Below are positions 3,407-39,586 of a stretch of 49,538 bases of DNA, piece by piece; within the stretch, counting starts at the first letter, position 1; every line of letters begins with the position of its first letter. The notes beneath the pieces were generated by a model that saw nothing but the letters and a program-made list of their open reading frames with translations, was not told the DNA's origin and did not search any database. Both the position numbers and the translations under genes were made by a program. This stretch comes from Patescibacteria group bacterium (lineage in GTDB: Bacteria > Patescibacteriota > Minisyncoccia > UBA6257 > GWB1-50-10): NCBI GenBank assembly GCA_030018585.1, contig JASEHZ010000002.1:1-49538 (forward strand), given 5' to 3'.

Positions 3407-4081
3407 ATGAAATTTATATCTATAATCATAATTTCTGTCCTAGTTGGATTTTTTGGACTATCTAGCTCTATTCTCGCCCAAACTGAATCCCAAGGAGAAA
3501 TAATTTTTACTTGGCAGGCTAAAAATTTCTACCCGGCCAATTTCGAAGGCAAAGCCCTACCAACCCAAAATTCCAACATAGACACTGCTTTAGAACTTCT
3601 AAAAGATAACAAACTTCAAGATTTGAGTAATGCCGCTATTACTTGGTTTTTGGATGGAAAAATTTTCAAAAAGGGGATTGGCTTTAAAGAAGCTTCTTTT
3701 ATAGCAAACAGGCCGGCCAGCGATTCGCATTTTATTAAAGTAACTATTGAATTGCAAAATGATTTTTACGAAAATTCTTTACGTCTTTATGTTTTCAATC
3801 CTAAAATCGCTATTTTAACAAAACCATTTTCCAGATACACAATTCCCGCCAACGCCGAATTCTCTCTTAGTGCCGTACCTTTCTTTTTTAACGTGGGGTC
3901 TTTTCAAGATCTTTTATTTTTCTGGCAAATCGGCTCAGAAAAAACAAGCGGCTCAAATGCCTTATCTTTGATATTCCAAAAAACGGAAAAAACCATTGAT
4001 GTTTCTGTGGCCATTCAAAACCAAAAAAACATTCTTGAAACAACAAAAGAATTGGTTTATTTGAATATAAAATCCCGTTAG
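3407..4081 (+). CDS. secreted protein of unknown function
   Basis: The N-terminal signal-like sequence is MKFISIIIISVLVGFFGLSSSILAQ. The TAG stop at 4079-4081 lies inside the left arm of repeat cassette E1. Confidence 0.55.
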   Translation: MKFISIIIISVLVGFFGLSSSILAQTESQGEIIFTWQAKNFYPANFEGKALPTQNSNIDTALELLKDNKLQDLSNAAITWFLDGKIFKKGIGFKEASFIANRPASDSHFIKVTIELQNDFYENSLRLYVFNPKIAILTKPFSRYTIPANAEFSLSAVPFFFNVGSFQDLLFFWQIGSEKTSGSNALSLIFQKTEKTIDVSVAIQNQKNILETTKELVYLNIKSR

Positions 4082-4191
4082 AGATAACTAAATTTTAATT
4101 ACTTTAATATTAATGACAAAACAAATAACATTATTATCACGCTCAACGGTCGGGTTTGCGGTCACCTTTGGTGACCTATCTCTAACGGGAT
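4072..4191. repeat. Inverted-repeat-framed cassette E1 (copy 1 of 3)
   Basis: The arms are perfect 15-nt inverted repeats: ATCCCGTTAGAGATA (4072-4086) and TATCTCTAACGGGAT (4177-4191). An inner hairpin GGTCACC-TTT-GGTGACC (4160-4176) abuts the right arm. The right arm includes the A and T of the ATG at 4190. Confidence 0.8.
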
Positions 4192-5710
4192 GAAAAAAAA
4201 TAATTCTTATCTTCTCATTCTTCTCGTCTTTTTTGTCTTTCTTTTCTCGTTTAATTTAATTTTCGCTCAAGGATTTAAATTTAATTTTCCGGGCGCGACC
4301 GCCGGCACTTCAAGCATTCAAGCTTATATTGTAAACTTCTACCAGTTCGGCCTTGCTATTGCCGGCATTTTGGCAGTCGGCATGATTGTGGCAGGCGCAA
4401 TTTATTACAGTTTATCCGGCGCAAGCCCCGACAAACAAAGCGAAGCAAAAGACATGATTACCTCCGCTATTTGGGGACTTATTCTTCTTTTTGGTTCTTA
4501 TTTAATCTTATCCACTATTAATCCTAATTTGGTGGTTTTGGATCTGCCTGGCCAAGGCAGCACTTCTTGCAGCGCCAAGAACGCGCCTAAACCCTGCGAA
4601 ACAAACGAAACACCAATTTATAACCAAAGTAATGGAACTTGCAATTGTTATATTCCTCTTCAAACAAACTGTTCTTTTCAACCAGAATTGCCATCTTGCA
4701 CGCCCGGTCAATCGGCTACAGATGATAAAGGAAACTGTGTTTGCAAGCCGGAAAAAACAGAAACAGCCAGCTGTCCGGGTGATTTTGCGCCGCTTGCTCC
4801 AGATCCAAACAATATCCCAGTTTACGCTTGGACAACGGATGTAAATATAATAAAAGCATTAAAGCCGAACAGGCTTCCTATTGACCCGAGCGCATGGCCT
4901 TATTTTTCTCGTTGTCCAAGGAAAGTAAAAATTAAAATTAGCGGTAGTGGCACTGATTTTTACACAATCGACTGCGACTCTTGTGAAGGCGGTTGGTCAC
5001 AAGCCAATGACGGACATCATATTACGACTTCAACTGACTGGACCACTGGTTGGCTTTGGCCATATTATCCTAAAAAACTCGACCTGAGCAAAGCTCTTTG
5101 TCTTATGTACGCTTGGTATAACCCCGAAGAAAGCGCGTTAGAAAAAGCTGATCTTGACGGCTTAAAAGCCTGCACTACTTTCAGCACCTCTACTTTAGTA
5201 AACATTCCTGTTCTTAAAGACGTGAAGCCTTGTTTAGCTTGCGTTGATTTTCCATTCCAAGTTGACACCCGAACCAATCCTTTTTCTCCAATCCCATCTC
5301 CAGTAATGATTCCATCAAAACCCATAGGTGAGGTATGCAACCCAAGCCTAACATCTTTAGACAAATGTATGGTGACTCCTGGTATAAAAACAAAGCTGAC
5401 TAAATTATATAATCAAACCAAAAATTGGAATGAGACGGGCAGACAAAATGAAGGCGACGCCTGGAATCAAAAAAACTTAAGCTGGGAAGTTACTGAAGTT
5501 TGGCCGCCAGCCGCTGCTCATCAAGACCCTTGTCATTATAACGGAACTTGCATTGACGTGGCTTTGCGCGAAAACGTTAATTGCAATAATGTTGCTGTTT
5601 TTAAAAATTTAGCGCAAAATGCCGGCGGTTTTTGGGTAAAAAATGAATATCCTGACTGCGGCGGCGCAACAACCCCCAATTGGACTGGCGGCCATTTTCA
5701 CTTAAAATAA
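4190..5710 (+). CDS. T4SS pilin-like (VirB2/TrbC-like) N-terminal domain fused to a Cys-rich region and a putative LAS-type Zn-peptidase C-terminus
   Basis: After a signal sequence come two hydrophobic helices, IVNFYQFGLAIAGILAVGMIVAGAIYYSLSG and ITSAIWGLILLFGSYLILSTINP, as in TrbC/VirB2-type pilins. The middle of the protein carries many Cys. The C-terminus has CHYNGTCIDVAL (from 5519) and GGHFHLK, resembling the H-x2-G-x-A-x-D and H-x-H motifs. Confidence 0.65.
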   Translation: MKKNNSYLLILLVFFVFLFSFNLIFAQGFKFNFPGATAGTSSIQAYIVNFYQFGLAIAGILAVGMIVAGAIYYSLSGASPDKQSEAKDMITSAIWGLILLFGSYLILSTINPNLVVLDLPGQGSTSCSAKNAPKPCETNETPIYNQSNGTCNCYIPLQTNCSFQPELPSCTPGQSATDDKGNCVCKPEKTETASCPGDFAPLAPDPNNIPVYAWTTDVNIIKALKPNRLPIDPSAWPYFSRCPRKVKIKISGSGTDFYTIDCDSCEGGWSQANDGHHITTSTDWTTGWLWPYYPKKLDLSKALCLMYAWYNPEESALEKADLDGLKACTTFSTSTLVNIPVLKDVKPCLACVDFPFQVDTRTNPFSPIPSPVMIPSKPIGEVCNPSLTSLDKCMVTPGIKTKLTKLYNQTKNWNETGRQNEGDAWNQKNLSWEVTEVWPPAAAHQDPCHYNGTCIDVALRENVNCNNVAVFKNLAQNAGGFWVKNEYPDCGGATTPNWTGGHFHLK

Positions 5711-7332: not shown

Positions 7333-7998
7333 TTATTTTTTGATTTTCTTATTTATATAAAACTGCTGCAGGATTGAAAAAGTTGTTGAAGTAAACCAAT
7401 AAACTCCTAAGGCCGCTGGTAGAGCGCTCAAAACAAAAAACGTGATAATAGGACCAATCCAAACCATGGCTTTTCCTGTCATTATCATAGGATTCGGACT
7501 TTTGTCTTGGTTGGTTTGTTTTGGTAAAGAAAGCTTGCCTTGATAATACTGCAAAAGGGCCGTGATTAAAGTAACGGATAAATTCTTTTCGTTTAAACTA
7601 ATCAATCCTAAAAAGGAGTGGGTATCGAACGTCGAGGTTTCCAATTCCTTATTAAACAATTGAAATAAAGCAATGAAAACCGGCAGCTGAATTAACAAAA
7701 GAAAGAAACCAGAAAAAGGGTTTAGTTTGTTTTCTTTATAAAGACTCATTAAGGCCTTTGCTTGTTTTTCTTTGTCGTTTTTATGATCGGTTTGAATTTT
7801 TTTTATCTGGGGCTGTAATTGTTGCATGATGGTTTGATCCTTGGCGCCTTTATAAAAAAGCGGGAAAAGAACGGTTCTTACCAAAAGAGTGAGGATAATA
7901 ATAGAAACGCCAAGATCTTGAAAAGCAATGTTTTGATAAATAAAAACAAGAACCGATAAAATTGGTTCGTAAATATAACTATTAAATAAAGCAGTCAT
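7333..7998 (-). CDS. yidC: membrane protein insertase YidC (short form)
   Basis: It occupies the rnpA-yidC-jag position. Motifs include LLVRTVLFPL, QPQIKKIQ and LPVFIALF, in a multi-TM protein. Confidence 0.85.
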   Translation of the reverse strand: MTALFNSYIYEPILSVLVFIYQNIAFQDLGVSIIILTLLVRTVLFPLFYKGAKDQTIMQQLQPQIKKIQTDHKNDKEKQAKALMSLYKENKLNPFSGFFLLLIQLPVFIALFQLFNKELETSTFDTHSFLGLISLNEKNLSVTLITALLQYYQGKLSLPKQTNQDKSPNPMIMTGKAMVWIGPIITFFVLSALPAALGVYWFTSTTFSILQQFYINKKIKK

Positions 7999-8003
7999 GT
8001 TTT

Positions 8004-8264
8004 TTAAAATTTAAAAGCTTTTATTATTTCTTGTTTTAATTCTTTGAAATTTAATCTTGTTATTTCCGGTTTTGTTATAATTGTGTATACAAATTCCGGA
8101 TTTTTTAAAAATTCTCTTGCGATAACCCTAATTCTCCGTTTGATCTTATTCCTTAAAACAGCCTTTTTAGAAACTGTCCGTCCGACAACGATAATTAAGA
8201 ACTTTTTGTTTCTGGGGTCTTTTTTTGATTTTTTTACAATTAAAAACGCCACGGATACAAACAC
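8004..8264 (-). CDS. rnpA: ribonuclease P protein component
   Basis: It contains the RNR-like motif AVLRNKIKRRIR and sits between rpmH and yidC. The start is GTG. Confidence 0.75.
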   Translation of the reverse strand: MFVSVAFLIVKKSKKDPRNKKFLIIVVGRTVSKKAVLRNKIKRRIRVIAREFLKNPEFVYTIITKPEITRLNFKELKQEIIKAFKF

Positions 8265-8271
8265 AAAAGAC

Positions 8272-8406
8272 CTACAAAGCTATTCTTTTCCTACCCGCCT
8301 GACGCCTTCTTTTAAGAACTGCTCGTCCGCCCGGCGTTCTCTTTCTTTTTAAAAAACCGTGAGTTTTCCTTCTTTTTTTCTTTTTCGGCTGAAAAGTTAC
8401 GCTCAT
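8272..8406 (-). CDS. rpmH: 50S ribosomal protein L34
   Basis: Hand translation of the minus strand gives [44 protein letters not shown] (44 aa). The ORF is too short for the supplied ORF track. Confidence 0.85.
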
Positions 8407-8642
8407 AAAAATAGTTTTTTCTCCCGACTTTTTGCTGTTTGTTTGGTAAACTTATTATAAATGAACTCTGTTTTTTCGCAACCTTTTTGTTTTTTTGCTC
8501 AAATTTTTCATTAAAAAGTTATTAACAAACAGTCCACAATTAAAGCACAAAATTATTTTCTAAACAACATTGAAACTTTCTAAAATATGGTTATGATTAA
8601 TTCCAAAATCATAAACGCAACCGTCGATAATAAAAAACTTTT

Positions 8643-10016
8643 ATGAATCCTAAAGACCTTTGGAATTCGGTGCTTGGTGAAATAGAGCTTCAAATTTCTA
8701 AGCCTAACTTTTTAACTTGGTTTAAAAACAGCGAACTTGTTGAGAAAAAAGAAAAAGAAGGTCTGGTTTTTGTAAGTCTTCCTAATAATTTTGCAAAAGA
8801 GTGGATAAAAAACCGTTATCATAAGCTTATTTTAGGTTCTTTGCGCACTTTGGACGGATCAATAAAAAGCGTGGAATATGTTGTTCGAACACAAAACTTA
8901 AACCCCCTAACTATTCCAGTCCCGAATTCTAAAAAAACTTTTTCTGTTTCCGAAGAAATCCAACCTATTTTGATCGAAAGCAAAATAGACCCGAAAACAA
9001 ATTTAAATCCACGCTATTCTTTAAAAAACTTTATTGTTGGCTCTTCTAATGAATTGGCTTACGCCGCGATTCAAGCGGTTGTTAAAGATGTCGGCATAAA
9101 ATATAATCCTCTTTTTATCTATGGCGGGGTTGGTCTTGGAAAAACCCACCTTCTTCAGGCGGCTGGAAATGCTATTAAAGATAAATCCGAAAAAATTAAT
9201 ATTCTTTATATTTCATCAGAAAAATTCATAAACGATGTTGTCTGGGCTATTCGTAATAAACGAACCGAGGACATGAAAAAGAAATACCGCGACGTTGATG
9301 TTCTTATTATTGATGACATTCAATTCATTGGTGGCAAAACTACAACAGAATTAGAATTTTTTTATACCTTTAATGTCCTCTATGAAAACAATAAACAAAT
9401 AATTCTTTCTTCCGACCGTCCGCCGGCTGCTATCCCCACCCTCGAAGAAAGACTAAGATCCCGTTTTCAGGTCGGTATGGTGGCTGATATTGGTTATCCA
9501 GATTATGAAATGCGCTTGGCGATTTTAAAAACCAAAATTTCTAATCAACAACTAAGAATCGAGGATAAAATTCTTGAACAAATAGCCACCAAGGTCCAGA
9601 AAAATATAAGAGAATTGGAAGGTGTTTTAAATAAAGTTGTTTTTTACCAACAGTTCAAAGGAGAAAAAATAGATAATAAAAAACTCGAAGAAATTATAAA
9701 CGAAACTATTCAAGTTTCAGCCAAAAACGTTACTGCTAATGAAATTATAAAAGCTGTGGCGGATTTTTTTGAAATTTCTCAATCTAATTTAACTGAACGA
9801 AGCCGAAAGCAAGAAATAGTTGAACCTAGACAAATTACAATGTTTCTGCTTCGCGAACTACTCAAGCTTTCCTATCCTCATATCGGGGAGTGTTTGGGCA
9901 AACGCGACCATACCACCGCTATTCATGCCTACGAAAAAATATTAAAAGAAATAAATCAAAATCCGGCGTTAAATCAAAAAATTCTCTTAATAAAAGAACG
10001 GGTGTATAAAATGTAA
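8643..10016 (+). CDS. dnaA: chromosomal replication initiator DnaA
   Basis: Walker A is GGVGLGKTHLLQA. There is an AAA+ box VII region and a C-terminal DNA-binding helix (RKQEIVEPRQITMFLLRE). The gene is divergent from rpmH. Confidence 0.95.
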   Translation: MNPKDLWNSVLGEIELQISKPNFLTWFKNSELVEKKEKEGLVFVSLPNNFAKEWIKNRYHKLILGSLRTLDGSIKSVEYVVRTQNLNPLTIPVPNSKKTFSVSEEIQPILIESKIDPKTNLNPRYSLKNFIVGSSNELAYAAIQAVVKDVGIKYNPLFIYGGVGLGKTHLLQAAGNAIKDKSEKINILYISSEKFINDVVWAIRNKRTEDMKKKYRDVDVLIIDDIQFIGGKTTTELEFFYTFNVLYENNKQIILSSDRPPAAIPTLEERLRSRFQVGMVADIGYPDYEMRLAILKTKISNQQLRIEDKILEQIATKVQKNIRELEGVLNKVVFYQQFKGEKIDNKKLEEIINETIQVSAKNVTANEIIKAVADFFEISQSNLTERSRKQEIVEPRQITMFLLRELLKLSYPHIGECLGKRDHTTAIHAYEKILKEINQNPALNQKILLIKERVYKM

Positions 10017-10186
10017 ATAAATTGTGTAAAAATATTAATTATCCTCCTGAAAAATTTAAAACAAAGAAAGATATGCGCTTTTTACTTTTTTAATTTTCTA
10101 CTCTGTACAATGCTTTTTGAAACTTTTCCACTTATTCACATTACTATTACTACCACTAAAGATAATAATAAAGATAATAATAAAAA
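10017..10186. promoter_or_regulatory. candidate oriC segment (dnaA-dnaN intergenic)
   Basis: Two DnaA-box-like 9-mers lie together: TTTTCCACT (10124-10132) and TTATTCACA (10132-10140). They are followed by a perfect tandem 12-mer AAAGATAATAAT x2 (10158-10181) in very AT-rich DNA. Confidence 0.35.
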
Positions 10187-11302
10187 ATGAAATTAATAAT
10201 TCTTAGAAATAATCTTTTAAGAGCTTTCGGAACAGAAGAGCGGGTAATTAGCAATAATGTAAATTTACCCATTTTAAAAAATATTTTTCTAGAAGCTCAA
10301 GAAGGAAAAATTATTCTTACAGCAACCGATTTAGAACTAGCAATTCAATACAATCTGTCAGGAAAAATAATAGAAAGCGGTTCTGTTGTTATGCCGTTTT
10401 TTATTATCAATTCAATTATTAAAAATTTAACCAGCGAAAGGGTAAATATTGAAGAAAAAGAAAAAAAGATATTTTTAAGTACCGATAATTATGAAGCAGT
10501 AATTCAAGGACAAAGCCCGAAAGAGTTCCCGATTATTCCGTCAATTCATAATAATAAACAATTTGTAAAAATTTCTGTAGCTTTTTTAAAAGAAGCTTTA
10601 GAAAACGTTATTGGAGCAACTCAATATTCAGAAATTAGACCGGAAATAAGCGGTGTTTTTGTAAAATTTTTTGACGAAAAAATGTTTTTTGTGGCAACAG
10701 ATAGTTTTCGTTTGGCGGAAAAAAGCTTGGGAAAAAACCAATTTCAAACATCGTTTGATAATTTTTCGGCTATTATTCCTTTAAAAACAGCCGAAGAATT
10801 ATTGAGAGCATTAAGCGGTTTAGATGGTGACGATGAGAACGTCGAAATTTTTATAGATCTTAATCAAATTTTATTTAAAACAAACGTTTGGCAAATCACT
10901 TCCCGTCTTATTGATGGGAAATTTCCGGAATATCAGGGAGTTATTCCAAAAGAAACGAAAACCGAAGTTACTTTAAATAAACAAGAATTTATAAACGCAA
11001 TAAAATTAACCAGCACTTTTGCCGGAAGGACGCAGGATGTTTCAATTAAAAGCGGAGAAAACAGAAAATATATTGAACTTACATCATCAGACAGCTCGTT
11101 AGGAGAAAACAAATACCAAGTACTTTCAAAAGTAAAAGGAGAAAAGGTTTCTGTAACCTTTAATTGGCGGTACCTTATTGAAGGGTTAAAAATTTACAAA
11201 AGCGAGGAAATTGTTTTGGGAGCCAATTTAACAGGACCAGCCGTAATTAAGAATCCAAACGACAATTCTCTTATTTATGTATTGATGCCTATAAAGAATT
11301 AG
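10187..11302 (+). CDS. dnaN: DNA polymerase III beta sliding clamp
   Basis: It is the 371-aa ORF directly after dnaA. Typical clamp text includes ATDSFRLAE and SRLIDGKFPEY. Confidence 0.9.
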   Translation: MKLIILRNNLLRAFGTEERVISNNVNLPILKNIFLEAQEGKIILTATDLELAIQYNLSGKIIESGSVVMPFFIINSIIKNLTSERVNIEEKEKKIFLSTDNYEAVIQGQSPKEFPIIPSIHNNKQFVKISVAFLKEALENVIGATQYSEIRPEISGVFVKFFDEKMFFVATDSFRLAEKSLGKNQFQTSFDNFSAIIPLKTAEELLRALSGLDGDDENVEIFIDLNQILFKTNVWQITSRLIDGKFPEYQGVIPKETKTEVTLNKQEFINAIKLTSTFAGRTQDVSIKSGENRKYIELTSSDSSLGENKYQVLSKVKGEKVSVTFNWRYLIEGLKIYKSEEIVLGANLTGPAVIKNPNDNSLIYVLMPIKN

Positions 11303-19586: not shown

Positions 19587-20585
19587 TTAAACCAAGGAAC
19601 GTTTTTCTGCCGTACCCAAGTGTTTATAAGCGAGAGGGGCGGCAATGCGTCCAGCTGGCGTTCTATTTAAGAGTCCGACTTTCATAAGAAACGGTTCAAG
19701 AACTTCTTCAATTGTTCCAACCTCCTCGTTTAATGAGGCACCGAGGGTTTTTAGACCAACCGGACCGCCGTTAAATTTTTTAATGATAGTTAAAAGGAGT
19801 TGCCGGTCGGTTTCTTCAAGCCCCAAAGAATCTATTTTAAGAAGTTTAAGGGTTTCGTGGACAACTTTTTCGTCAATATTTTTTAGCTTATTTACTTGGG
19901 CAAAATCACGGGCACGTTTTAAAAGACGATTAGCTACGCGGGGCGTGAAGCGGGAGACTTTGGCGAGCACGGTTGTTGCTTCGGGGGTAAGTTCAATGCC
20001 GAGAATTTTAGCGGAGCGCTCAAGAATTTTTTCAATATCTTCGTTTTGATAATAATCAAGTCTGAATGTTGCTCCAAAACGAGATCGAAGAGGTCCGGAC
20101 AATAGATTCGTGCGGGTAGTGGCAGCAATTATCGTAAAAGGCGGCAAATCAAGAGAAAAGGTTCTGGCTGACGGCCCCTTACCGACAATTAAATGAAGTT
20201 TGCGACTTTCCATGGCTGGATATAATATTTCTTCGGTCATTTTGTTTATTCTATGAGCTTCATCAATAAAAAGTATTTCATTCGGTTCAATATTAGAAAG
20301 TATTGCTGCCACGTCGCCGGCGCGTTCAAGGGCTGGACCGGAAGTTGATCGTATGTTGACGCCCATTTCTTTTCCAACAAGATAAGCAAGGGTTGTTTTG
20401 CCTAAACCGGCTTGGCCGTAAAACAAAAGATGGTCGCAATTTTCGTTGCGGCCCTTGGCAGCATCAATAATTAGACGCAAATTAGCTTTTACGTTTTCTT
20501 GGCCGACATATTCATTCCATTTAGTCGGCCTCAGAGTTAATTCAAGATTTTGATCATCTTTATTTGAATTAGTGATTTTTTTCAT
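19587..20585 (-). CDS. ruvB: Holliday junction branch migration helicase RuvB
   Basis: Motifs include LRPTKWNEYVGQE, Walker A GQAGLGKTTLA, Walker B LFIDEAHR and the winged-helix C-terminus. Confidence 0.95.
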   Translation of the reverse strand: MKKITNSNKDDQNLELTLRPTKWNEYVGQENVKANLRLIIDAAKGRNENCDHLLFYGQAGLGKTTLAYLVGKEMGVNIRSTSGPALERAGDVAAILSNIEPNEILFIDEAHRINKMTEEILYPAMESRKLHLIVGKGPSARTFSLDLPPFTIIAATTRTNLLSGPLRSRFGATFRLDYYQNEDIEKILERSAKILGIELTPEATTVLAKVSRFTPRVANRLLKRARDFAQVNKLKNIDEKVVHETLKLLKIDSLGLEETDRQLLLTIIKKFNGGPVGLKTLGASLNEEVGTIEEVLEPFLMKVGLLNRTPAGRIAAPLAYKHLGTAEKRSLV

Positions 20586-20691: not shown

Positions 20692-20850
20692 TTTTAAGAC
20701 CTGTGGGCAAAGGGGTACTTTCTTAGAACTTTAGGGCTAACCTGGTTTTGACTGGGTAGTTCCTCGGAAATACCCTCCCTTTTCTGATGCTTTCAGAAAA
20801 GATTTCCACATAATAAGCCATTTCCGGCTTATTGCCCACAGATCTTAAAA
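20692..20850. repeat. 159-bp element framed by 19-nt inverted repeats; candidate structured RNA or MITE
   Basis: TTTTAAGACCTGTGGGCAA (20692-20710) pairs with TTGCCCACAGATCTTAAAA (20832-20850) with one mismatch in 19. The interior holds at least three local hairpins, including CTTTTCTGA-TGCTT-TCAGAAAAG and TAAGCC-ATTTCC-GGCTTA. Confidence 0.5.
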
Positions 20851-20883: not shown

Positions 20884-22554
20884 TTAAAAACAAGTAGTTG
20901 GCCCGGTTAGTCTTTCAATTTCGTCTTTGCTGGTGATGCCTTTTAATACTTTTAATATTCCGTCTTCTTGCATTGTAGTCATCCCTTGTTCTTTTGCCAA
21001 GTTCATAAGTTCAATTTCGGTCGGATTTTGATAAATTTTTTGTTCGATTTTTTCGTCAACCAAGAAAAGTTCAAAAATAGATGTCCGACCTCGATAACCT
21101 AAACCGCCGCACAGATCACAACCTTTCGTTTCAAAAATAGAGAAATTTTTGTAATTTTCTTTATTCACTCTCTTCGGAAGAGAGTTTAAAAAAGCGTTTA
21201 TTTTTATTTTTGTTTTTTCGTCAATTATTTTCTGCGTCTTACAATAAAGACAAAGAACCCTTGCTAATCTTTGGGCGATTACCAGGGAAAGAGCTGGTCC
21301 CAAAATTTGAGGTTTTGCGCCAAGATCAATAAGGCGTGGAATAGCGCCGATCGCGTCATTGGTGTGGAGCGTGGAAAAAACGATATGACCGGTTAGGGCC
21401 GCGTTCATGGCGATTTCGGCCGTTTCTCGATCGCGGATTTCGCCGACCAAAATTACATTCGGATCTTGCCGCAAAATAGATCTTAGACCGCTCGCAAAAG
21501 TGTAATTGGCGTCAGAATCAACTTGAGTTTGGGAAATTCCTGGCAGATGATATTCAATTGGGTCTTCAACGGTAATGATTTTTATTTCCGGTTTAAAAAC
21601 AAATTTAAGAAAAGCGTAAAGCGTAGTTGTTTTACCCGAACCAGTGGGTCCCGTGTTTAAAATAAGTCCGTTCGGTTTTTTAATTCCAGCTTTAACGATT
21701 TCAAGATCGTCTTCGCGCCAGCCCAAATCTTCCAAATTAACTTTTAGAGCGAGCGGATCGAGCAAGCGCAAAACAATAGTTTCGCCGTATTCAGAAGGAA
21801 TAACCGAAGTCCTTATTTCTATGTCGCGGTCTTTTAAGTCAATAGTGAATCGGCCGTCTTGAGGTTCATCAATAATATTGAGTTTTAAATTCGACAGAAG
21901 TTTTATTCTGGTGACGATTGAGTGATAGGTTGGATGGGAAAACTCTTCATAAGCCGTATGAAGCAAGCCGTCTATGCGAAGTCTTAGTTTGTTGGCTTCA
22001 GCTGACGGCTCTAAATGGATATCGGACGCTTTTAAAGCTAGGGCGCCGGCAAGGATAATTTCCGAAATCTGAGAAACTAAAGAACCCTTAAAATCTTTTA
22101 TAGTAGTTGTAAACGATTGAAGATTTTTAATAGAAGCTAAGAGTGTTTGTAGGTTTTGTTCGTCAATTTCAACTCGGCCGCTTATTTCTTTGGCGTCATC
22201 AACTACATATTGATAATAACTCCAGGCATGTTGAAGACCAGTTAACGACGTGATGACAATTTGGACTTCATAATTCTTTTTTAAGTCTTCAATAATTTTT
22301 TTAGCTTCTGGTTTTTCCGGATTAAAACAAGCAACGAGCAGTTTTTTTCTTAAAAGCTGGAGCGGCACAAGAAAAGCTTTGCGCGCTTCTTGTTCGGGTA
22401 CGAGTTTCATGGCTTTTATTTCTGTAGGAACTTTTACGGATATTAAATCAAGATAGGAGAGGCTAAATTGGTTAGCGCGGCGCTTAGCGTCATTTTCTTC
22501 GGCTAATTTTCTTTGTTTTGCAAGTTGTTCGTCCAAGTCTTTAGTTTGGAACAT
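20884..22554 (-). CDS. GspE/PilB-family type II secretion / type IV pilus assembly ATPase
   Basis: Walker A is GPTGSGKTTTLYA. Asp and His boxes are present, and the C-terminus has Cys pairs (CLYCK, CDLCGGLGYRGR). Confidence 0.9.
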   Translation of the reverse strand: MFQTKDLDEQLAKQRKLAEENDAKRRANQFSLSYLDLISVKVPTEIKAMKLVPEQEARKAFLVPLQLLRKKLLVACFNPEKPEAKKIIEDLKKNYEVQIVITSLTGLQHAWSYYQYVVDDAKEISGRVEIDEQNLQTLLASIKNLQSFTTTIKDFKGSLVSQISEIILAGALALKASDIHLEPSAEANKLRLRIDGLLHTAYEEFSHPTYHSIVTRIKLLSNLKLNIIDEPQDGRFTIDLKDRDIEIRTSVIPSEYGETIVLRLLDPLALKVNLEDLGWREDDLEIVKAGIKKPNGLILNTGPTGSGKTTTLYAFLKFVFKPEIKIITVEDPIEYHLPGISQTQVDSDANYTFASGLRSILRQDPNVILVGEIRDRETAEIAMNAALTGHIVFSTLHTNDAIGAIPRLIDLGAKPQILGPALSLVIAQRLARVLCLYCKTQKIIDEKTKIKINAFLNSLPKRVNKENYKNFSIFETKGCDLCGGLGYRGRTSIFELFLVDEKIEQKIYQNPTEIELMNLAKEQGMTTMQEDGILKVLKGITSKDEIERLTGPTTCF

Positions 22555-30590: not shown

Positions 30591-30714
30591 TATAAATCCT
30601 TATATTTGGTTGTAAGATTCTGTTGTAATTATACATTTTAATAAATTGAAAGTCAAGACTTGTTTTAAAATCATAGCTTATTTAGTTCGTTGGTTTATAA
30701 TAATTAAGGGATTT

Positions 30715-30836
30715 ATCCCGTTAGAGACAATAATTCCATGATTTTCAAAACAAGCCTTATGATATATAAGAAAAGTCGATTGCCGTTAAAACGGCTGATT
30801 TACGGTCGTCCGAAGACGACCTGTCTCTAACGGGAT
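30715..30836. repeat. Inverted-repeat-framed cassette E2 (copy 2 of 3)
   Basis: The arms are perfect 15-nt repeats: ATCCCGTTAGAGACA (30715-30729) and TGTCTCTAACGGGAT (30822-30836). An inner hairpin GGTCGTC-CGAA-GACGACC (30804-30821) abuts the right arm. The ATG at 30835 is inside the arm. Confidence 0.8.
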
Positions 30837-32190
30837 GAAACTTACTTTTTGTGGTGGGGCAAAGTCAGTAACAGGTTCCAATTATTTACTTGAATCTGGA
30901 GGCAAGAAAATTTTAATTGATTGCGGACTTCATCAGGGCGGTTCTTATTCTGAATCCCAGAATTTTGAACCATTTCCTTATAAACCGGAGGAAATTGAAG
31001 CGGTTTTTATTACTCATGCTCATATCGATCATATTGGTCGTTTGCCTCAGTTTTGCCGGGCGGGTTTTAGGGGTCAGATTTTTTCAACGCCGCCCACTAA
31101 GGATTTTGGTGAATTTTTACTGTTAGATTCTGAGCATATTCTTCGGGAAGAAGCGCAAAAACGGAAAAAGCCGCCGCTTTATGAGATTAGCGATGTGGTA
31201 GCGACCATGGCTTTGTGGCACAAAGTTTCTTATCACGAAAAAACAAACATTTCTGGTTTTGAAATTGAATTTTTTGATGCTGGTCATATTTTAGGTTCAA
31301 GTTCGATTGTTATTTCTGTTGAAGGCAAGCGAATAGTTTTTTCCGGAGATTTGGGCAATAATCCGTCGCCATTTATCAATTCAACGGAATATATTGAAAA
31401 TGTTGATTACGCGCTTATTGAATCGGTTTACGGCAATAGGATTCATGAAGAAGTGGATCGTCGTAAGGAAATCCTGGAAGATTTAATTGAAGATACGGTA
31501 AAAAACATGGGTGTTTTTTTGATTCCGGCTTTTGCTCTGGAACGGACTCAGGAAATGATTTTTGAGCTTAATGGACTTGTTGAAAATGGTCGGATTCCCA
31601 GAGCGCCGGTTTTTATTGATAGTCCCTTAGCCATAAAACTTACAGCCGTTTACCAGAAATATTCTGAAAATCCGCTGTATTTTAATTCAGAGTCAATGAG
31701 ATTATTAAAAAAAGGTGATGCAATATTTAATTTCCCCGGACTTAAGATGGCGCTCACCACCGAGCAATCTAAGGACATAAATAACGTGCCGCCGCCAAAA
31801 GTTATTATTGCCGGTTCCGGCATGTCAAATGCCGGAAGAATTTTACATCACGAGTTGCTTTATTTATCAGATCCCAAGAATACGATTTTGATTATCGGTT
31901 ATCAAGCCAGCGGATCGCTCGGTCGAAACTTAATTGATGGTGCGAAAACTGTGAAAATTTTTGGGAAAACCGTTTCTGTTGGATGTAAAACAGAATCGAT
32001 CAGCGGTTATTCGGCGCATGCGGATCAGAACCAGCTCTTAAAATGGGTAGAACCGATGCGTTTAAGTGTTAAAAAAGTTTTTGTGGTTCAAGGCGAAGAA
32101 GATCAGGCCTTACCGTTAGCCCAGAAAATAAGAGATGAATTAGCGGTTGAAACCGAAGTTCCTTCACCGGGCGATACCGTGGTGTTATAA
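30835..32190 (+). CDS. MBL-fold beta-CASP ribonuclease (CPSF/RNase J-like)
   Basis: The N-terminus is MKLTFCGGAKSVTGSNYLL and the HxHxDH motif is HAHIDHIGRLP. A beta-CASP and C-terminal region (SAHAD) follow. Confidence 0.85.
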   Translation: MKLTFCGGAKSVTGSNYLLESGGKKILIDCGLHQGGSYSESQNFEPFPYKPEEIEAVFITHAHIDHIGRLPQFCRAGFRGQIFSTPPTKDFGEFLLLDSEHILREEAQKRKKPPLYEISDVVATMALWHKVSYHEKTNISGFEIEFFDAGHILGSSSIVISVEGKRIVFSGDLGNNPSPFINSTEYIENVDYALIESVYGNRIHEEVDRRKEILEDLIEDTVKNMGVFLIPAFALERTQEMIFELNGLVENGRIPRAPVFIDSPLAIKLTAVYQKYSENPLYFNSESMRLLKKGDAIFNFPGLKMALTTEQSKDINNVPPPKVIIAGSGMSNAGRILHHELLYLSDPKNTILIIGYQASGSLGRNLIDGAKTVKIFGKTVSVGCKTESISGYSAHADQNQLLKWVEPMRLSVKKVFVVQGEEDQALPLAQKIRDELAVETEVPSPGDTVVL

Positions 32191-34968: not shown

Positions 34969-35081
34969 AAAAATACGTGCGTTTTAATTTATCTTTTTAA
35001 AATCAAATTTATAAGTTTGGTTTATAGACTCGGTTAAATATTAAATTTATTGTTTCAGCATTCCTTTGATTTCTAGTATCT

Positions 35082-35100
35082 TTGTCGGAATTTCCGACAA
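35082..35100. promoter_or_regulatory. perfect 9-1-9 palindrome, operator-like
   Basis: TTGTCGGAA-T-TTCCGACAA lies in the divergent region between the TrmB-family gene and the 35256 gene. A 1-nt spacer excludes an RNA hairpin. Confidence 0.4.
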
Positions 35101-35169
35101 CAAGGATTATATAAATAATAGCATATTATATCACTTTTGTAAGCAGATTGAATAATGACGTCGGCAATG

Positions 35170-38133: not shown

Positions 38134-38239
38134 GCCCCGTTAGATATCAAATTTTAAGCGCAAGGCGTTGGTTAGATATTTTGCGGGGCGAGATAATCTT
38201 ATAAATATGCAAGGGATACTAAGAATATCTAACGGGGTG
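38134..38239. repeat. Inverted-repeat-framed cassette E3 (copy 3 of 3, divergent)
   Basis: The arms are perfect 13-nt repeats: CCCCGTTAGATAT (38135-38147) and ATATCTAACGGGG (38225-38237). A second direct copy, GTTAGATATT, lies at 38171-38180. The final G of the right arm is the first base of the GTG at 38237. Confidence 0.7.
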
Positions 38240-39586
38240 AAAGAAAAGATAATCCGCTTGCTGTTTTTTGTTTTTTTAATTTTTTTACCATTTAGTGCTA
38301 AAAAATTTCTTTTTTCGTTGCCGGCATTGCTGTTTGGGAATCAAATTAATGAATTAAATTCTGTTTTTTTGTTTGCGAGCGATATATTTTTGATTTTGTT
38401 TGTTGTTTCGGTTCTTTGGTTTTGGGGACAGGATTTTAAAAAAATAGTTATTTCAAACAAGCTGATTTTAGTTTTTCTTGTTTTGGGGTTGGTTTCGATT
38501 TTTTTTGCTTCAGATATTTATATGAGTTTTTATTTCAGGTTAAGATTTTTGTTGGTTTCATCTGCGGCGTTTGCGATTGGAGTGTTAATTAAAAATAGCC
38601 TTTTAAAGTTTGATTGCATTATGTTTGGTTTAGGACTTTCCGCGGTTTTCCAGTCAATGGTTGCGATTTTGCAGTTTTTGGCGCAGAAAAGCATTGGCTT
38701 ATGGTTTTTGGGCGAGTCAATAATCAATTTAAATTCCGAAGGCGTGGCGCGGGTTATGATTAATGGCGTAAAAATGCTTAGGGCTTACGGTACGATGCCG
38801 CACGCCAATATTTTAGCTGGATTTTTGATTTTGGGACTTATTGCGCTTTTTTATTTGTTTATTAGGAATTTTAATGATAAGTTTTGGAAAAAATTATTGA
38901 TTTCTGTAGGGATTTTTATTATTTGTTTAGGATTAATCTTTAGTTTTTCCCGTTCAGGCTGGATTGCGGCCTTAATTTCAATAGTTTTATTTTTTGTTTT
39001 GGGATTTTTTAATAAAGCTGAAAGAAAAAAGTTTTGGCAGTTGCTCGCTTTATTATTTTGTATTTTCGCGATTTTATTTTTTGCTTTTGGTTCAATGATT
39101 TTTCCGCGGGCGCATTTTTCGTCCGGAGAAATTTCTGTGAATCACCGAATGATTTATAATAAGATAGGTTTGGAAATTATTAAAGGAAATCCATTAGGCG
39201 TTGGTATTGGCAATCAGGTAATCTTCGGGGTGAATAATGGTTTGTATGAAAAATACGGGCTAAAAGAATCCTGGAGTTGGCAGCCAGTTCACAACATCTA
39301 TCTTCTTATTGGTTCAGAGCTTGGTGTGTTTGGTTTAATAGTGTTTTTGCTCATAATCATTTTTTTAATTTTTCAAAAAGACAACGAAAAAAGGTTTTTG
39401 ATTTTTAAAAAGAATTTAGATTTCAATGTTTTATTAACAATACTTTCGGGGTTTCTGATTTTCGGGCTTTTTGATCACTTTTATTGGGATCTTCAATCTG
39501 GGAGATTGATGTTTTGGCTGGTTTTGGGCATGATGATCGGATTAAGCCCTCGTCGTTCAACGGACCCACGCACTATAATAAATTAA
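38237..39586 (+). CDS. O-antigen ligase (Wzy_C)-family polytopic membrane protein
   Basis: It has about 10-12 TM helices, with FSFSRSGWIAALIS and PVHNIYLLIGSELGVFGL motifs. The start is moved to the GTG at 38237 by analogy with E1 and E2; the ORF track used a TTG at 38168 inside the cassette. Confidence 0.7.
   Translation: MKEKIIRLLFFVFLIFLPFSAKKFLFSLPALLFGNQINELNSVFLFASDIFLILFVVSVLWFWGQDFKKIVISNKLILVFLVLGLVSIFFASDIYMSFYFRLRFLLVSSAAFAIGVLIKNSLLKFDCIMFGLGLSAVFQSMVAILQFLAQKSIGLWFLGESIINLNSEGVARVMINGVKMLRAYGTMPHANILAGFLILGLIALFYLFIRNFNDKFWKKLLISVGIFIICLGLIFSFSRSGWIAALISIVLFFVLGFFNKAERKKFWQLLALLFCIFAILFFAFGSMIFPRAHFSSGEISVNHRMIYNKIGLEIIKGNPLGVGIGNQVIFGVNNGLYEKYGLKESWSWQPVHNIYLLIGSELGVFGLIVFLLIIIFLIFQKDNEKRFLIFKKNLDFNVLLTILSGFLIFGLFDHFYWDLQSGRLMFWLVLGMMIGLSPRRSTDPRTIIN

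What the first reader, a model, noticed from the sequence alone, without database searches (positions are those of the whole stretch)
4072..4192. Cassette E1: a 120-nt inverted-repeat-framed element ending on the pilin gene start codon, one of three in the window
Perfect 15-nt arms ATCCCGTTAGAGATA (4072-4086) and TATCTCTAACGGGAT (4177-4191) enclose 90 nt. The left arm contains the TAG stop of the upstream secreted-protein gene (4079-4081). The right arm contains the A and T of the pilin ATG (4190). No Shine-Dalgarno sequence lies between the arm and the ATG, although other genes in the window have clear AGGAG sites. A 7-bp hairpin (4160-4176) abuts the right arm. The same layout recurs at 30715-30836 and 38134-38239, in front of unrelated genes. 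The internal segment CTCAACGG (4142-4149) could pair with the left arm instead of the right arm, with one bulged A.
Three readings fit:
(a) A cis-regulatory RNA that buries the start codon in a long stem. That stem could also be an RNase III substrate or a device for stop/start translational coupling.
(b) A family of invertible promoter segments served by one recombinase encoded elsewhere. Two of the three downstream genes are surface-related (the pilin and the O-antigen ligase).
(c) A MITE family with a strong insertion preference.
I do not recognise this as any named motif.
Basis: partly seen in the sequence, partly recalled or inferred. Interest (0 to 1): 0.8.

Follow-up and report, generated by a model that had tools for sequence, protein, structure and literature searches.

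The report
Gutted copy of tiny GIY-YIG transposon
The 120-nt inverted-repeat "cassette" in front of the pilin gene is a decayed, gene-less copy of a very small mobile element (an 86-codon GIY-YIG nuclease gene framed by 13-bp inverted repeats) that inserts into the TGAA of gene start sites in CPR bacteria and several other phyla, and I found no published description of it.

Summary
E1 (4072-4191), E2 (30715-30836) and E3 (38135-38237) are three copies of one inverted-repeat element, and each ends on a start codon.

- **Spread.** The same arms (CCCGTTAGA...TCTAACGGG) occur in at least 119 stretches of GTDB genomes, from Patescibacteria, Omnitrophota, Planctomycetota, Desulfobacterota and others.
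- **Transposon hallmarks.** The arms are 13-14 bp. A 4-bp target duplication with preference T-R-R-A flanks 65% of 127 copies (8% in controls).
- **Start codons.** Insertion into A|TGAA|A rebuilds the host start codon from the element's last base (A or G) plus TG. This explains both the position at start codons and E3's GTG.
- **Empty sites.** All three window sites are empty in related genomes, which have ATGA stop/start overlaps or a leaderless-type promoter there. E2 also has a decayed orthologue.
- **Parent element.** About 280-bp versions carry an 86-aa GIY-YIG nuclease gene. Its last codons (LSLTG) are the right arm, and 79 of 82 such genes have the left arm.
- **Hairpin.** The hairpin beside the right arm is the collapsed second inverted repeat of that gene.

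Whether the nuclease moves the element is untested. Rfam and literature searches found nothing.

The parts
4069..4072 (.). E1: position where the left copy of the 4-bp target duplication should lie. It reads AAAA rather than TGAA, so it is degenerate or was lost by a 4-nt deletion.
   Evidence: family-wide 4-bp duplication. In relative L225 the junction is aaaaATGAtt with no element.
4073..4086 (.). E1 left terminal inverted repeat (T + CCCGTTAGAGATA). It contains the TAG (4079-4081) that now ends the upstream ORF 3407..4081.
   Evidence: Arm boundaries come from 79 full-length and 69 short copies.
4087..4159 (+). E1 interior. I read it as the decayed remnant of the 5' part of the GIY-YIG gene; it has no ORF and no significant similarity is left.
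   Evidence: only the ends of E1 match the full-length profile. The reading is by analogy with E2 and L140.
4160..4176 (+). E1 hairpin GGTCACC-TTT-GGTGACC. It is the collapsed second inverted repeat (IR2) of the parent gene and sits 1 nt from the right arm, as in full-length copies.
   Evidence: enrichment of hairpins at the right arm; IR2 covariation in full-length elements.
4177..4190 (.). E1 right terminal inverted repeat (TATCTCTAACGGG + A). In the parent element it encodes the nuclease C-terminus ..LSLTG. Its last base is the A of the pilin ATG.
   Evidence: profile positions 269-288.
4191..4194 (.). E1 right copy of the target duplication, TGAA. With the element's last base it forms the ATG of the pilin gene (4190..5710).
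30716..30729 (.). E2 left terminal inverted repeat (T + CCCGTTAGAGACA). A TATAAT box lies upstream at about 30687-30692.
   Evidence: (I11).
30730..30803 (+). E2 interior. It aligns to positions 2-98 of the full-length element profile (left arm, start region, ...TGATTTACGG), so it is the 5' part of the nuclease gene, now decayed.
   Evidence: E = 0.0095 over the window; E = 0.001.
30804..30821 (+). E2 hairpin GGTCGTC-CGAA-GACGACC (collapsed IR2).
30822..30835 (.). E2 right terminal inverted repeat (TGTCTCTAACGGG + A). Its last base is the A of the ATG of the beta-CASP/MBL gene 30835..32190. TGAA follows at 30836-30839.
   Evidence: The site is empty in L126 and L124, and a decayed orthologous copy is in L123.
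38135..38147 (.). E3 left terminal inverted repeat (C + CCCGTTAGATAT).
38148..38224 (.). E3 interior. It is decayed, has no hairpin next to either arm, and its orientation cannot be assigned.
38225..38237 (.). E3 right terminal inverted repeat (ATATCTAACGGG + G). The terminal G plus TG of the TGAA at 38238-41 forms the GTG start of the Wzy_C gene (38237..39586).
   Evidence: Relatives have ATGAA at an ATGA stop/start overlap and no element.

Best explanation
**What it is.** E1, like E2 and E3, is a non-autonomous, internally deleted copy (a MITE) of a very small mobile DNA element.

**The complete element (about 275-290 bp).**
- It has 13-14-bp terminal inverted repeats, Y-CCCGTTAGAGAN ... NTCTCTAACGGG-R.
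- It carries a single 86-codon gene for a stand-alone GIY-YIG nuclease of the UPF0213/Slx1-like type.
- The last five codons of that gene (L-S-L-T-G) are the right repeat.
- A second 12-bp inverted repeat (IR2) pairs the codons for ..RKRF.. with those for ..LKRFL..

**How it inserts.**
- Insertion duplicates 4 bp of target with preference T-R-R-A.
- In compact, AT-rich CPR genomes the copies that survive are mostly those inserted in the TGAA of an A-TGAA-N gene start, often an ATGA stop/start overlap or a leaderless start.
- There the element's terminal A or G plus the duplicated TG rebuilds an ATG or GTG, so the host gene stays intact.

**How the short copies arise.** Deleting the roughly 165 bp enclosed by IR2 gives the ~115-nt form: left arm, decayed 5' gene remnant, hairpin, right arm.

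**What is shown and what is inferred.**
- Shown: the family, its ends, the target duplication, the target preference, the empty sites, and the link to the nuclease gene.
- Inferred: the GIY-YIG protein recognises the arms and IR2, perhaps as folded or cruciform DNA, and makes the cuts that move both full-length and short copies.
- Inferred, present effect of E1: a 15-bp stem holds the pilin AUG. The upstream ORF now ends at the TAG inside the left arm, so ribosomes finishing that ORF would melt the stem and expose the AUG. This would replace the original ATGA coupling seen in relatives.
For: **Family is real.**
- In 102 of 127 hits all four further positions (-1, 9, 10, 11) pair as well, and in 122 of 127 at least three do.

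**Ends.**
- Arm length has a sharp boundary at 13-14 bp.
- Paired changes occur at position -1 and at positions 9-11.

**Target duplication.**
- An exact 4-bp direct repeat lies just outside the arms in 65% of 127 short copies (control 8%) and 28% of 79 full-length copies (control 9%).
- The spectrum is TGAA/TTCA, TAAA/TTTA, TGAG, TGGA.

**Start codons.**
- 69 of 129 copies abut a long ORF's start codon.
- ATG goes with a T:A terminal pair and GTG with C:G.

**Empty sites.**
- E1: relatives L225 and L226 have the same gene order, with an ATGA overlap (L225) or a 5-nt gap (L226) and no element.
- E2: L126 has TATAAT, then 6 nt, then ATGAAACTG. L124 has no element. L123 has an orthologous copy with its stems eroded.
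- E3: L124 and L126 have ATGA overlaps.

**Parent element.**
- L108 and L011 are long forms with the same arms and a GIY-YIG ORF, Pfam PF01541, E = 5e-14.
- More than 1,744 90%-identity clusters of ~86-aa proteins end in the invariant ..NRLKRFLSLTG.
- 79 of 82 such genes, found by a protein-pattern scan of metagenomes, have the left arm within 60 nt upstream of their start codon (usually 8-11 nt), and nearly all end in the right arm.

**Link between long and short forms.**
- L140 has a full-length copy followed in tandem by an internally deleted one.
- E2 aligns to profile positions 2-98 plus 269-288.
- IR2 is 12 bp, with paired changes at synonymous codon positions.
- Hairpins of 7 bp or more abut the gene-proximal arm in 30% of short copies, against 6% of shuffles.
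- Elements bounded by a target duplication fall into discrete size classes, and the few longer TSD-matched pairs appear to be nested or tandem copies; I saw no transposase-carrying element.

**Mobility within the family.** Nested and tandem insertions occur.

**The nuclease.**
- The invariant columns include Y3, Y5, G18, R26, H30, E62 and N76. From my own knowledge of the GIY-YIG fold, I read these as the catalytic set.
- The AF2 model has pLDDT 90.7. Its best PDB matches are UPF0213 BH0048, then Slx1 (TM 0.64, rmsd 1.8 A), then I-TevI.
Against: - E1's own left target copy is not intact: AAAA against TGAA. E2 and E3 match at only 2 of 4 positions.
- Beyond the arms, E1 and E3 interiors have no significant similarity to the nuclease gene. 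Their derivation rests on family-level evidence.
- No GIY-YIG gene of this family lies in the 49.5-kb window or in the relatives' loci, so current mobilisation in this organism is not shown.
- Only 28% of full-length copies keep an exact 4-bp duplication.
- From my own knowledge, GIY-YIG enzymes are hydrolytic nucleases with no known strand-transfer activity, and an 86-aa protein has no separate DNA-binding domain. How insertion is completed is therefore unknown.
- The raw 18-nt spaced pattern would give about 270 chance hits in 596 Gb under equal base frequencies (my estimate). The count alone proves nothing; the extra pairing, the duplications and the taxonomy carry the argument.
- The perfect GC-rich arms of all three window copies, in an AT-rich genome, could also mean that the stems are kept by selection for a host-level function.
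Confidence: 0.8

Rival explanations
1. The arms define a cassette that is moved in trans by an unlinked, conventional transposase (for example a DDE enzyme that makes 4-bp duplications). The GIY-YIG gene would be only a passenger, as in a mobile insertion cassette. E1 would still be a MITE, but of an ordinary IS family.
For: - A 4-bp target duplication next to terminal inverted repeats is typical of DDE transposition, and GIY-YIG enzymes are not known to join DNA (both from my own knowledge).
- No nuclease gene of this family lies in the window.
- Only 28% of full-length copies keep an exact duplication.
Against: - 79 of 82 genes of this nuclease family carry the left arm, and nearly all end in the right arm. 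The reading frame runs through the right arm, and IR2 lies inside the coding sequence with paired synonymous changes.
- No longer element with the same arms and a transposase gene was seen in about 1.2 Mb of loci.
- The protein is 70-85% identical across phyla, which suggests it travels with the element.
Confidence: 0.2
2. The element is an evolved cis-regulatory RNA. The long stem buries the start codon and is opened by an upstream ribosome, an RNase III cut or a ligand, giving regulated or coupled translation of surface-related genes.
For: - Very stable predicted folds, with z = -4.8 to -9.1.
- The start codon is always at the base of the stem, and there is no Shine-Dalgarno site.
- In E1 the upstream stop codon lies in the left arm.
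- There are paired changes in the stems.
- All three window copies keep perfect arms, whereas the L123 orthologue of E2 lost them.
Against: - The orthologous genes of close relatives lack the element, or carry an eroded one.
- Downstream genes are unrelated: pilin, beta-CASP nuclease, Wzy, and dozens of others.
- Target duplications, nesting, tandem copies and both orientations are hallmarks of a transposon.
- Many non-CPR copies are not at starts.
- There is no excess of G:U over A:C mismatches.
- Rfam has no match.
- Paired changes in the arms are also expected if one protein must recognise both ends.
Confidence: 0.08
3. The elements are invertible promoter switches (invertons) flipped by a recombinase encoded elsewhere, giving phase variation of the pilin and the O-antigen ligase.
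For: - Inverted repeats frame a short segment directly upstream of surface-related genes.
- E1 has a TTGTCA-16-TAAAAT match on the minus strand.
- In at least 5 of 69 copies elsewhere the interior is in the opposite orientation relative to the gene.
Against: - The promoter match is at chance level, and none was found inside E2 or E3.
- -10 boxes lie outside, upstream of the left arm, in many copies.
- The ORFs I scanned in the window include no recombinase.
- From my own knowledge, 90 bp between the sites is very short for duplex inversion.
- Target duplications and empty sites show insertion.
- 24 and 23 contigs read for two full-length copies gave no place with the reversed arrangement.
Confidence: 0.03
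4. The arms are recombination sites of a tyrosine-recombinase system, integron-attC-like or Xer-like. A circular form carrying TCTAACGGG-R-NNNN-Y-CCCGTTAGA would integrate at sites that share the 4-6-bp core.
For: - GTTAGA/TCTAAC resembles the integron core GTTRRRY/RYYYAAC (from my own knowledge).
- Tandem junctions such as TCTAACGGG-ATTCAT-CCCGTTAGA in L037 look like a full core site, with two inverted binding arms and a 6-bp spacer.
Against: - The order of the boxes is the reverse of attC: GTTAGA...TCTAAC rather than RYYYAAC...GTTRRRY.
- No integrase gene lies in the window or inside any element.
- Target sites have no arm-like sequences.
- The repeat is only 4 bp.
- The gene linked to the arms is a GIY-YIG nuclease.
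Confidence: 0.04

Closest known systems
Bacterial MITEs that sit in transcribed regions, such as Correia/NEMIS elements of Neisseria, ERIC and Rickettsia palindromic elements (from my own knowledge)
   Same: - 100-150-nt non-coding elements with terminal inverted repeats and short target duplications.
- Many copies per genome, co-transcribed with neighbouring genes.
- They form long hairpins that can affect mRNA processing and translation.
   Different: - The parent is not a known IS. The only gene found between the same ends is an 86-aa GIY-YIG nuclease.
- The target is T-R-R-A.
- In CPR genomes the copies are concentrated exactly on start codons and rebuild them.
- The family spans several phyla.
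Free-standing GIY-YIG homing endonuclease genes, such as the Seg genes of phage T4 and I-TevI-type enzymes (PMC2988022 was listed but not read; the comparison is from my own knowledge)
   Same: - A selfish GIY-YIG nuclease gene wedged between host genes and using host expression signals.
- The fold is related to the I-TevI catalytic domain.
   Different: - Homing genes have no terminal inverted repeats or target duplications, and they spread to one cognate site by double-strand-break repair.
- Here the insertion sites are many and unrelated, the ends are defined, and gene-less derivatives outnumber the gene in the genome loci I fetched, which were selected for carrying short copies.
- The protein is only the ~86-aa catalytic domain, with no DNA-binding domain.
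UPF0213 / YhbQ-type stand-alone GIY-YIG proteins and the Slx1 structure-specific nuclease
   Same: - Best sequence and fold matches: 1zg2, 1ywl, then Slx1 7cq3 with TM 0.64.
- From my own knowledge, Slx1 cuts branched and stem-loop DNA. That fits an element whose cis-acting parts are two nested inverted repeats.
   Different: - To my knowledge, the UPF0213 proteins with solved structures are uncharacterised chromosomal proteins not reported to be framed by repeats.
- The LSLTG tail encoded by the repeat is specific to the tight family; most of the best 150 representatives match only to about position 82-83.
Mobile insertion cassettes (MICs): passenger genes between IS-type inverted repeats, moved in trans (from my own knowledge)
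   Same: A short unit bounded by inverted repeats that carries one small gene and no recognisable transposase.
   Different: The gene is always the same nuclease, its frame overlaps the repeat, and no cognate IS was found.
Integron attC sites and REPIN/RAYT repeats
   Same: - Imperfect palindromes of about 60-140 nt that can fold as single strands.
- A GTTAGA/TCTAAC core like attC.
   Different: - The box order is reversed relative to attC.
- No IntI or RAYT (HUH) gene was found.
- A target duplication is present.

Membership tests
MITE (miniature inverted-repeat transposable element) | Short (under about 300-500 bp), with no coding capacity | tested here: met
   E1, E2 and E3 are 120, 122 and 103 nt with no conserved ORF. 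Reading frames opened by an upstream ATG are not conserved beyond MxPVR.
MITE (miniature inverted-repeat transposable element) | Terminal inverted repeats shared by all copies | tested here: met
   13-14-bp arms with a sharp boundary in 69 short and 79 long copies. The arms of E1, E2 and E3 are perfect.
MITE (miniature inverted-repeat transposable element) | Target-site duplication flanking the repeats | tested here: met
   Family level: an exact 4-bp repeat in 65% of 127 copies against 8% in controls. In E1, E2 and E3 themselves only 2 of 4 positions match, so it is degenerate there.
MITE (miniature inverted-repeat transposable element) | Multiple dispersed copies, with presence/absence at orthologous sites | tested here: met
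   Three copies in 49.5 kb. Several copies per 8-kb locus elsewhere. Relatives have empty sites for all three window copies.
MITE (miniature inverted-repeat transposable element) | A longer element with the same ends that encodes the mobilising enzyme | tested here: inconclusive
   A longer form with the same ends exists and encodes a GIY-YIG nuclease. Whether that protein mobilises the element cannot be tested with these tools.
Invertible promoter (inverton) | A promoter inside the segment framed by the inverted repeats | tested here: not met
   One chance-level match in E1, on the minus strand, and none inside E2 or E3.
Invertible promoter (inverton) | Both orientations present at one locus, with a cognate recombinase | not testable with these tools
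   No reads are available. The ORFs I scanned in the window include no recombinase. Places read for two full-length loci in other assemblies all showed one orientation.
Integron attC site | Box order 5'-RYYYAAC ... GTTRRRY-3' at the 3' end of a cassette, with IntI nearby | tested here: not met
   The order here is GTTAGA...TCTAAC on both strands. No integrase was found.
Any Rfam RNA family | Covariance-model score at or above the gathering threshold | tested here: not met
   The only hit in the window is a tRNA at 39631-39704. A permissive scan of 3950-4300 gave only weak, sub-threshold hits.
Free-standing homing endonuclease gene | Nuclease gene inserted at one cognate site of a conserved host gene or region, without terminal repeats or target duplication | tested here: not met
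   Insertions lie next to many unrelated genes and have arms and duplications.
GIY-YIG nuclease superfamily (the parent element's protein) | GIY-YIG domain with the catalytic Tyr, Tyr, Arg, His, Glu and Asn residues | tested here: met
   PF01541, E = 5e-14. Invariant columns include Y3, Y5, G18, R26, H30, E62 and N76; reading them as the catalytic set is from my own knowledge. Fold matches to UPF0213, Slx1, I-TevI and UvrC.

The most novel reading that the evidence does not exclude
**The reading.** The ~280-bp unit is an autonomous prokaryotic transposon whose only enzyme is an 86-residue GIY-YIG nuclease. That would be a transposase class outside the DDE, DEDD, HUH, serine, tyrosine and Cas1 types.

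**How it would work.**
- The nuclease recognises the two nested inverted repeats, possibly as extruded hairpin or cruciform DNA, as its structural relative Slx1 does.
- It makes cuts staggered by 4 nt at T-R-R-A, and host ligation or repair finishes the move.
- The element has adapted to compact genomes by landing on ATGAA start sites. Its terminal base rebuilds the host start codon, and its own stop codon (CGGG-A-TGA) overlaps that start.
- The short copies such as E1 would then be its parasites.
Probability: 0.4. Interest if true: 0.9.

Novelty: new variant of a known kind. Interest (0 to 1): 0.75.

Why it matters
- **A possible new way of moving DNA.** If the nuclease moves the element, this is one of the smallest autonomous mobile elements yet seen in bacteria. 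It would add a new enzyme class to prokaryotic transposition, which is directly testable with an 86-aa protein and a 30-bp substrate.
- **An annotation problem explained.** Hundreds of CPR, Omnitrophota and Planctomycetota genes appear to start right after a long GC-rich stem with no ribosome-binding site, sometimes with GTG. Many "GIY-YIG nuclease family protein" ORFs sit between operon genes. This element accounts for both.
- **A practical marker.** It marks recent insertions and gene starts in genomes that cannot be cultured.
- **A natural experiment in translation.** It shows how translation restarts after a 100-280-nt insertion at a start codon, whether by ATGA coupling, leaderless starts or stem melting by upstream ribosomes.

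Tried and rejected
- **Rfam.** A gathering-threshold scan of the whole window and a permissive scan around E1 gave nothing relevant.
- **Viral contigs.** The scan for the arms gave three hits, which I judged unrelated or chance: a high-GC phage with GTTCTAAC repeats and a coding region.
- **Internal promoters.** Scans were at chance level.
- **Leader peptide.** I considered a conserved peptide starting at the upstream ATG. The reading frames vary in length and sequence beyond MxPVR, which is simply the arm translated.
- **RNA-level removal.** I considered translational bypass or RNA splicing of the element, prompted by the flanking ATGAAT repeats and the RtcB gene at 28584-29978. I dropped this once the repeat resolved into a 4-bp target duplication plus the element's terminal base pair.
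- **Six-bp duplication.** My first model was a 6-bp duplication. Position 1 of the right hexamer and position 6 of the left hexamer turned out to belong to the element.
- **Same-species assemblies.** An exact-protein look-up for the E2 gene found none, so inversion and excision polymorphism could not be examined.
- **Nuclease gene nearby.** I searched the window and the relatives' loci for a GIY-YIG gene of this family and found none.
- **Larger elements.** A search for longer elements with the same arms and a transposase found none.
- **Other libraries.** PHROGs, NCBIfam and the phage collection gave no specific family. The only results were a weak similarity to group I intron endonucleases and a 36%-identical Rhizobium phage gene.
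- **Literature.** Nine full-text searches found no description of the arms or of a repeat-framed GIY-YIG element. Subscription journals and ISfinder were not searchable.

Full report
**1.

E1 has perfect 15-nt arms at 4072-4086 and 4177-4191, with 90 nt between them.
- The left arm contains the TAG that ends ORF 3407..4081.
- The right arm contains the A and T of the ATG of ORF 4190..5710, a T4SS pilin by Pfam.
- A 7-bp hairpin at 4160-4176 abuts the right arm.

E2 (30715-30836) ends on the ATG of a beta-CASP/MBL gene. E3 (38135-38237) ends on the GTG of a Wzy_C gene.

The exact 9-mer CCCGTTAGA occurs six times in the window, and these are exactly the six arms. All three elements fold far better than their shuffles.

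Rfam has no match. Promoter-like matches inside the elements are at chance level.

**2. The element is a widespread family**

I scanned one genome per GTDB species for CCCGTTAGA-N75-105-TCTAACGGG.
- Most are from Patescibacteria/CPR: Saccharibacteria, Paceibacteria and many others.
- Others are from Omnitrophota, Planctomycetota (including Brocadia), Desulfobacterota, Elusimicrobia and more.

By my estimate the bare pattern would give a few hundred chance hits in 596 Gb. The hits are nevertheless not chance: in 102 of 127, four further positions (-1, 9, 10, 11) also pair, and in 122 of 127 at least three do.

Several loci carry two or three copies, tandem copies (L037, L034), copies nested inside copies (L019, L089, L098, L076, L011), or short hairpin-only forms (L109, L080).

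**3. The anatomy is that of a transposon**

*Arms.* The arms end sharply after 13-14 bp. Paired changes occur at the outermost pair (T:A or C:G) and at positions 9-11.

*Target duplication.* Directly outside the arms there is an exact 4-bp direct repeat in 65% of 127 short copies (8% after shuffling partners) and in 28% of 79 long copies (9% in the control). The spectrum is TGAA/TTCA, TAAA/TTTA, TGAG, TGGA, which gives a T-R-R-A preference.

*Why the copies sit on start codons.*
- A host sequence A-TGAA-N becomes A-TGAA-[Y CCCG...CGGG R]-TGAA-N.
- The downstream start codon is therefore rebuilt from the element's last base plus TG.
- It reads ATG when the terminal pair is T:A and GTG when it is C:G. 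This is what is seen in E3 and in L026, L031, L047, L049, L050 and L170.
- 69 of 129 copies abut the start codon of a long ORF.
- Many also keep an ATG six bases before the left arm, preceded by a -10 box. That is the original, often leaderless-looking, start.
- Copies outside CPR more often lie at TAAA-type sites away from starts.

**4. The three window sites are empty in relatives**

*E1.*
- The same T4SS-like operon (VirB4-like ATPase, two small genes, pilin) occurs in L225. L225 comes from the same sample as L123, the closest relative found.
- There the 224-aa gene and the pilin gene overlap by ATGA (..aaaaATGAttatc..), and there is no element.
- L226 has a 5-nt gap and no element.

*E2.*
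- L126 has TATAAT-tgaact-ATGAAACTG, and L124 also lacks the element.
- L123 (neighbouring protein 89% identical) has an orthologous copy that keeps ATGAAT at the left. Its arms and hairpin are eroded, almost entirely by G:C to A:T changes, while the AT-rich interior is conserved.

*E3.* In L124 and L126 the Wzy_C gene starts at an ATGA overlap with the preceding permease gene.

The elements are therefore lineage-specific insertions, not conserved regulators of these genes.

**5. The parent element carries a GIY-YIG nuclease gene**

*Long forms.* Two longer units with the same arms, L108 (279 bp) and L011 (386 bp, itself interrupted by a nested short copy), encode an 86-aa protein with a GIY-YIG domain, PF01541, E = 5e-14.

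*The protein family.*
- Its relatives form more than 1,744 clusters at 90% identity.
- They are 70-85% identical to one another across Omnitrophota, Patescibacteria and a Flavobacteriales MAG.
- Nearly all are 86 aa and end in the invariant ..GMGKRYLKNRLKRFLSLTG.
- LSLTG is CTA TCT CTA ACG GGR, which is the right arm.

*Arms and gene go together.*
- A protein-pattern scan of metagenome contigs gave 82 such genes. Of these, 79 have CCCGTTAGA (at most one mismatch) within 60 nt upstream of their start codon, usually 8-11 nt, and nearly all end in the right arm.
- The protein pattern included NRLKRFLSL, so the scan was slightly biased towards the right arm but not the left.
- In 52 of 77, a stop codon follows at once (TGA 33, TAA 18, TAG 1). 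This produces CGGG-A-TGA, which overlaps a host ATG.
- In 10 of the 23 copies with a start codon six bases before the left arm, that codon is in frame with the nuclease ORF and open to it (MNPVRENKMWYT..; compare P0170 and P0214). Some copies may therefore use the host's own start codon.

*Examples in operons.* One lies between a methyltransferase and a glycosyltransferase gene at an ATGA junction (L131). Another lies between pgk and tpi (L140).

**6. How the short copies derive from the long ones**

*IR2 in the long form.*
- The nuclease gene contains a second 12-bp inverted repeat (IR2): GGAARCGYTTYA in the codons for R-K-R-F, and its complement in the codons for L-K-R-F-L.
- The 3' half ends 1 nt before the right arm.
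- Three positions show paired changes, and these fall at third (synonymous) codon positions: G:C 28 / A:T 23, C:G 46 / T:A 9, and T:A 24 / C:G 17 / G:C 4.

*The same feature in the short copies.*
- Short copies have a hairpin at that place with the same spacing. E1 reads GGTCACC-ttt-GGTGACC-T-ATCTCTAACGGG, and the hairpin is usually preceded by the remnant TTACGG of the D-L-R codons.
- Hairpins of 7 bp or more abut the gene-proximal arm in 30% of short copies, the distal arm in 10%, and shuffles in 6%.

*Direct links.*
- L140 shows a full-length copy followed in tandem by a copy with the middle of the gene deleted.
- A profile of 79 full-length elements aligns E2 over positions 2-98 and 269-288, with E = 0.0095 in the window and 0.001 in the short-copy set.
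- For E1 and E3 only the ends still match.

*Size classes.* Units bounded by a target duplication fall into classes of under 100, 100-150 and 250-300 bp. The few longer TSD-matched pairs appear to be nested or tandem copies, and none showed a transposase gene. These classes partly reflect how the loci were collected.

**7. The nuclease**

- The invariant columns of the alignment include Y3, Y5, G18, R26, H30, E62 and N76. From my own knowledge of the fold, I read these as the GIY-YIG catalytic set.
- The AF2 model is confident, with pLDDT 90.7.
- Its best PDB matches are the uncharacterised UPF0213 protein BH0048, then the nuclease domain of Slx1 (TM 0.64, rmsd 1.8 A), then I-TevI and UvrC. 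Slx1 is a structure-specific enzyme for branched and stem-loop DNA (my own knowledge).
- At 50% identity the tight family collapses to a few clusters: 25 at E <= 1e-30. The broader stand-alone GIY-YIG group has 2,833 at E <= 1e-10.
- High identity across phyla fits recent horizontal spread.

**8. Mechanism: shown and inferred**

*Shown:* defined ends, 4-bp duplication, T-R-R-A targets, empty sites, nesting, and the exclusive link to a GIY-YIG gene.

*Inferred:*
- The nuclease recognises the arms and IR2 and makes 4-nt staggered cuts, and host functions complete the move.
- The paired changes in both repeats fit recognition of folded DNA. They equally fit one protein having to recognise both ends, or an RNA stem.
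- G:T and A:C mismatches are equally common, so nothing points specifically to RNA.

*The main rival for this step:* mobilisation by an unlinked conventional transposase, with the nuclease gene as a passenger.

*For the host:*
- The insertion puts a 13-19-bp stem on the start codon.
- In E1 the upstream ORF now ends at the TAG in the left arm. The left target copy is missing, as if 4 nt had been deleted. Terminating ribosomes should therefore melt the stem and free the AUG, which would replace the ancestral ATGA coupling. This is inference only.
- All three window copies keep perfect GC-rich arms in an AT-rich genome, whereas the L123 copy lost them. That suggests either recent activity or some selection on the stems.

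**9. Comparison with what is known**

- The short copies meet the structural definition of a MITE.
- They behave like Correia/NEMIS-type elements in being co-transcribed hairpins.
- The parent resembles free-standing GIY-YIG homing genes in being a selfish nuclease gene between host genes. It differs from them in having terminal repeats, target duplications and many unrelated sites.
- It is not an attC site (reversed box order, no integrase), not a REPIN (no RAYT gene), and not an inverton.
- I found no description in nine full-text searches, nor in Rfam, NCBIfam or PHROGs. ISfinder and subscription journals could not be checked.

**10. Verdict**

- The finding is real.
- The MITE reading is right, and the regulatory-RNA and inverton readings are not supported.
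- The family appears to be a new kind of small mobile element whose only gene is a GIY-YIG nuclease.

*Confidence:*
- E1 is a mobile-element remnant: about 0.9.
- It derives from the GIY-YIG unit: about 0.8.
- The nuclease itself drives mobility: about 0.4-0.5.

Noticed in passing
window 20692-20710 / 20832-20850: A second, unrelated inverted repeat: 19 nt, 95% complementary, 121 nt between the arms. It encloses a GC-richer segment in the gap between ruvB (19587-20585, minus strand) and a T2SS/T4P ATPase gene (20884-22554, minus strand). It looks like a structured RNA or another repeat element. A permissive Rfam scan gave only a weak PyrR match (E = 0.6).
   Followed up: partly
L123 2860-3000 compared with window 30715-30836: In the orthologous decayed copy of E2, the arms and the hairpin are eroded almost entirely by G:C to A:T changes, while the AT-rich interior stays conserved. 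Either the stems were selected against or they decayed under AT-biased mutation. In the window lineage both arms stayed perfect.
   Followed up: partly
window 34231-38038: Relative to L124 and L126, where the Wzy_C gene overlaps the end of the amino-acid permease gene, the window has about 4 kb of extra genes between them. These are a TrmB-type regulator on the minus strand and three ORFs with no Pfam match. E3 sits at the end of this extra stretch.
   Followed up: no
window 28584-29978: An RtcB RNA ligase gene lies about 740 nt upstream of E2. I briefly considered RNA-level splicing of the element, but nothing supports a link.
   Followed up: partly
window 7333-11302: rnpA (8004-8264, minus strand), dnaA (8643-10016) and dnaN (10187-11302) are present, and the relatives' loci show a YidC-type (60KD_IMP) gene next to rnpA. 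I take the window to include the chromosomal origin region of a Paceibacteria/Jorgensenbacteria-like CPR genome.
   Followed up: no
L148, L151, L166, L178, L189, L190, L205 and L152, L169, L183, L184, L192, L215, L217, L220, L224: Many full-length GIY-YIG elements from different metagenomes sit at two recurring positions of what appears to be one host gene or gene pair (..QFKVVFDAIRQ.. then MSPPEPKRR..IGL..). This host locus was not identified.
   Followed up: no
L109 1263-1290, L080 3406-3434, L078 3648-3674, L062 874-902: There are minimal forms made of the two arms and a 3-10-nt loop only. They could be extreme deletion derivatives or footprints of excision.
   Followed up: no
L037 7674-7895, L034 5899-6278, L140 1480-1900: Tandem arrays in which neighbouring copies share one spacer (TCTAACGGG-ATTCAT-CCCGTTAGA in L037, 7 nt in L140). 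The junction looks like a recombinase core site or an IS circle junction, and it may matter for the mechanism.
   Followed up: partly
L001 6554-6671 and L003 8692-8809 (viral contigs): High-GC phage contigs with several copies of CGTTCTAACG-like motifs matched the arm pattern. This looks like an unrelated operator-type repeat.
   Followed up: no
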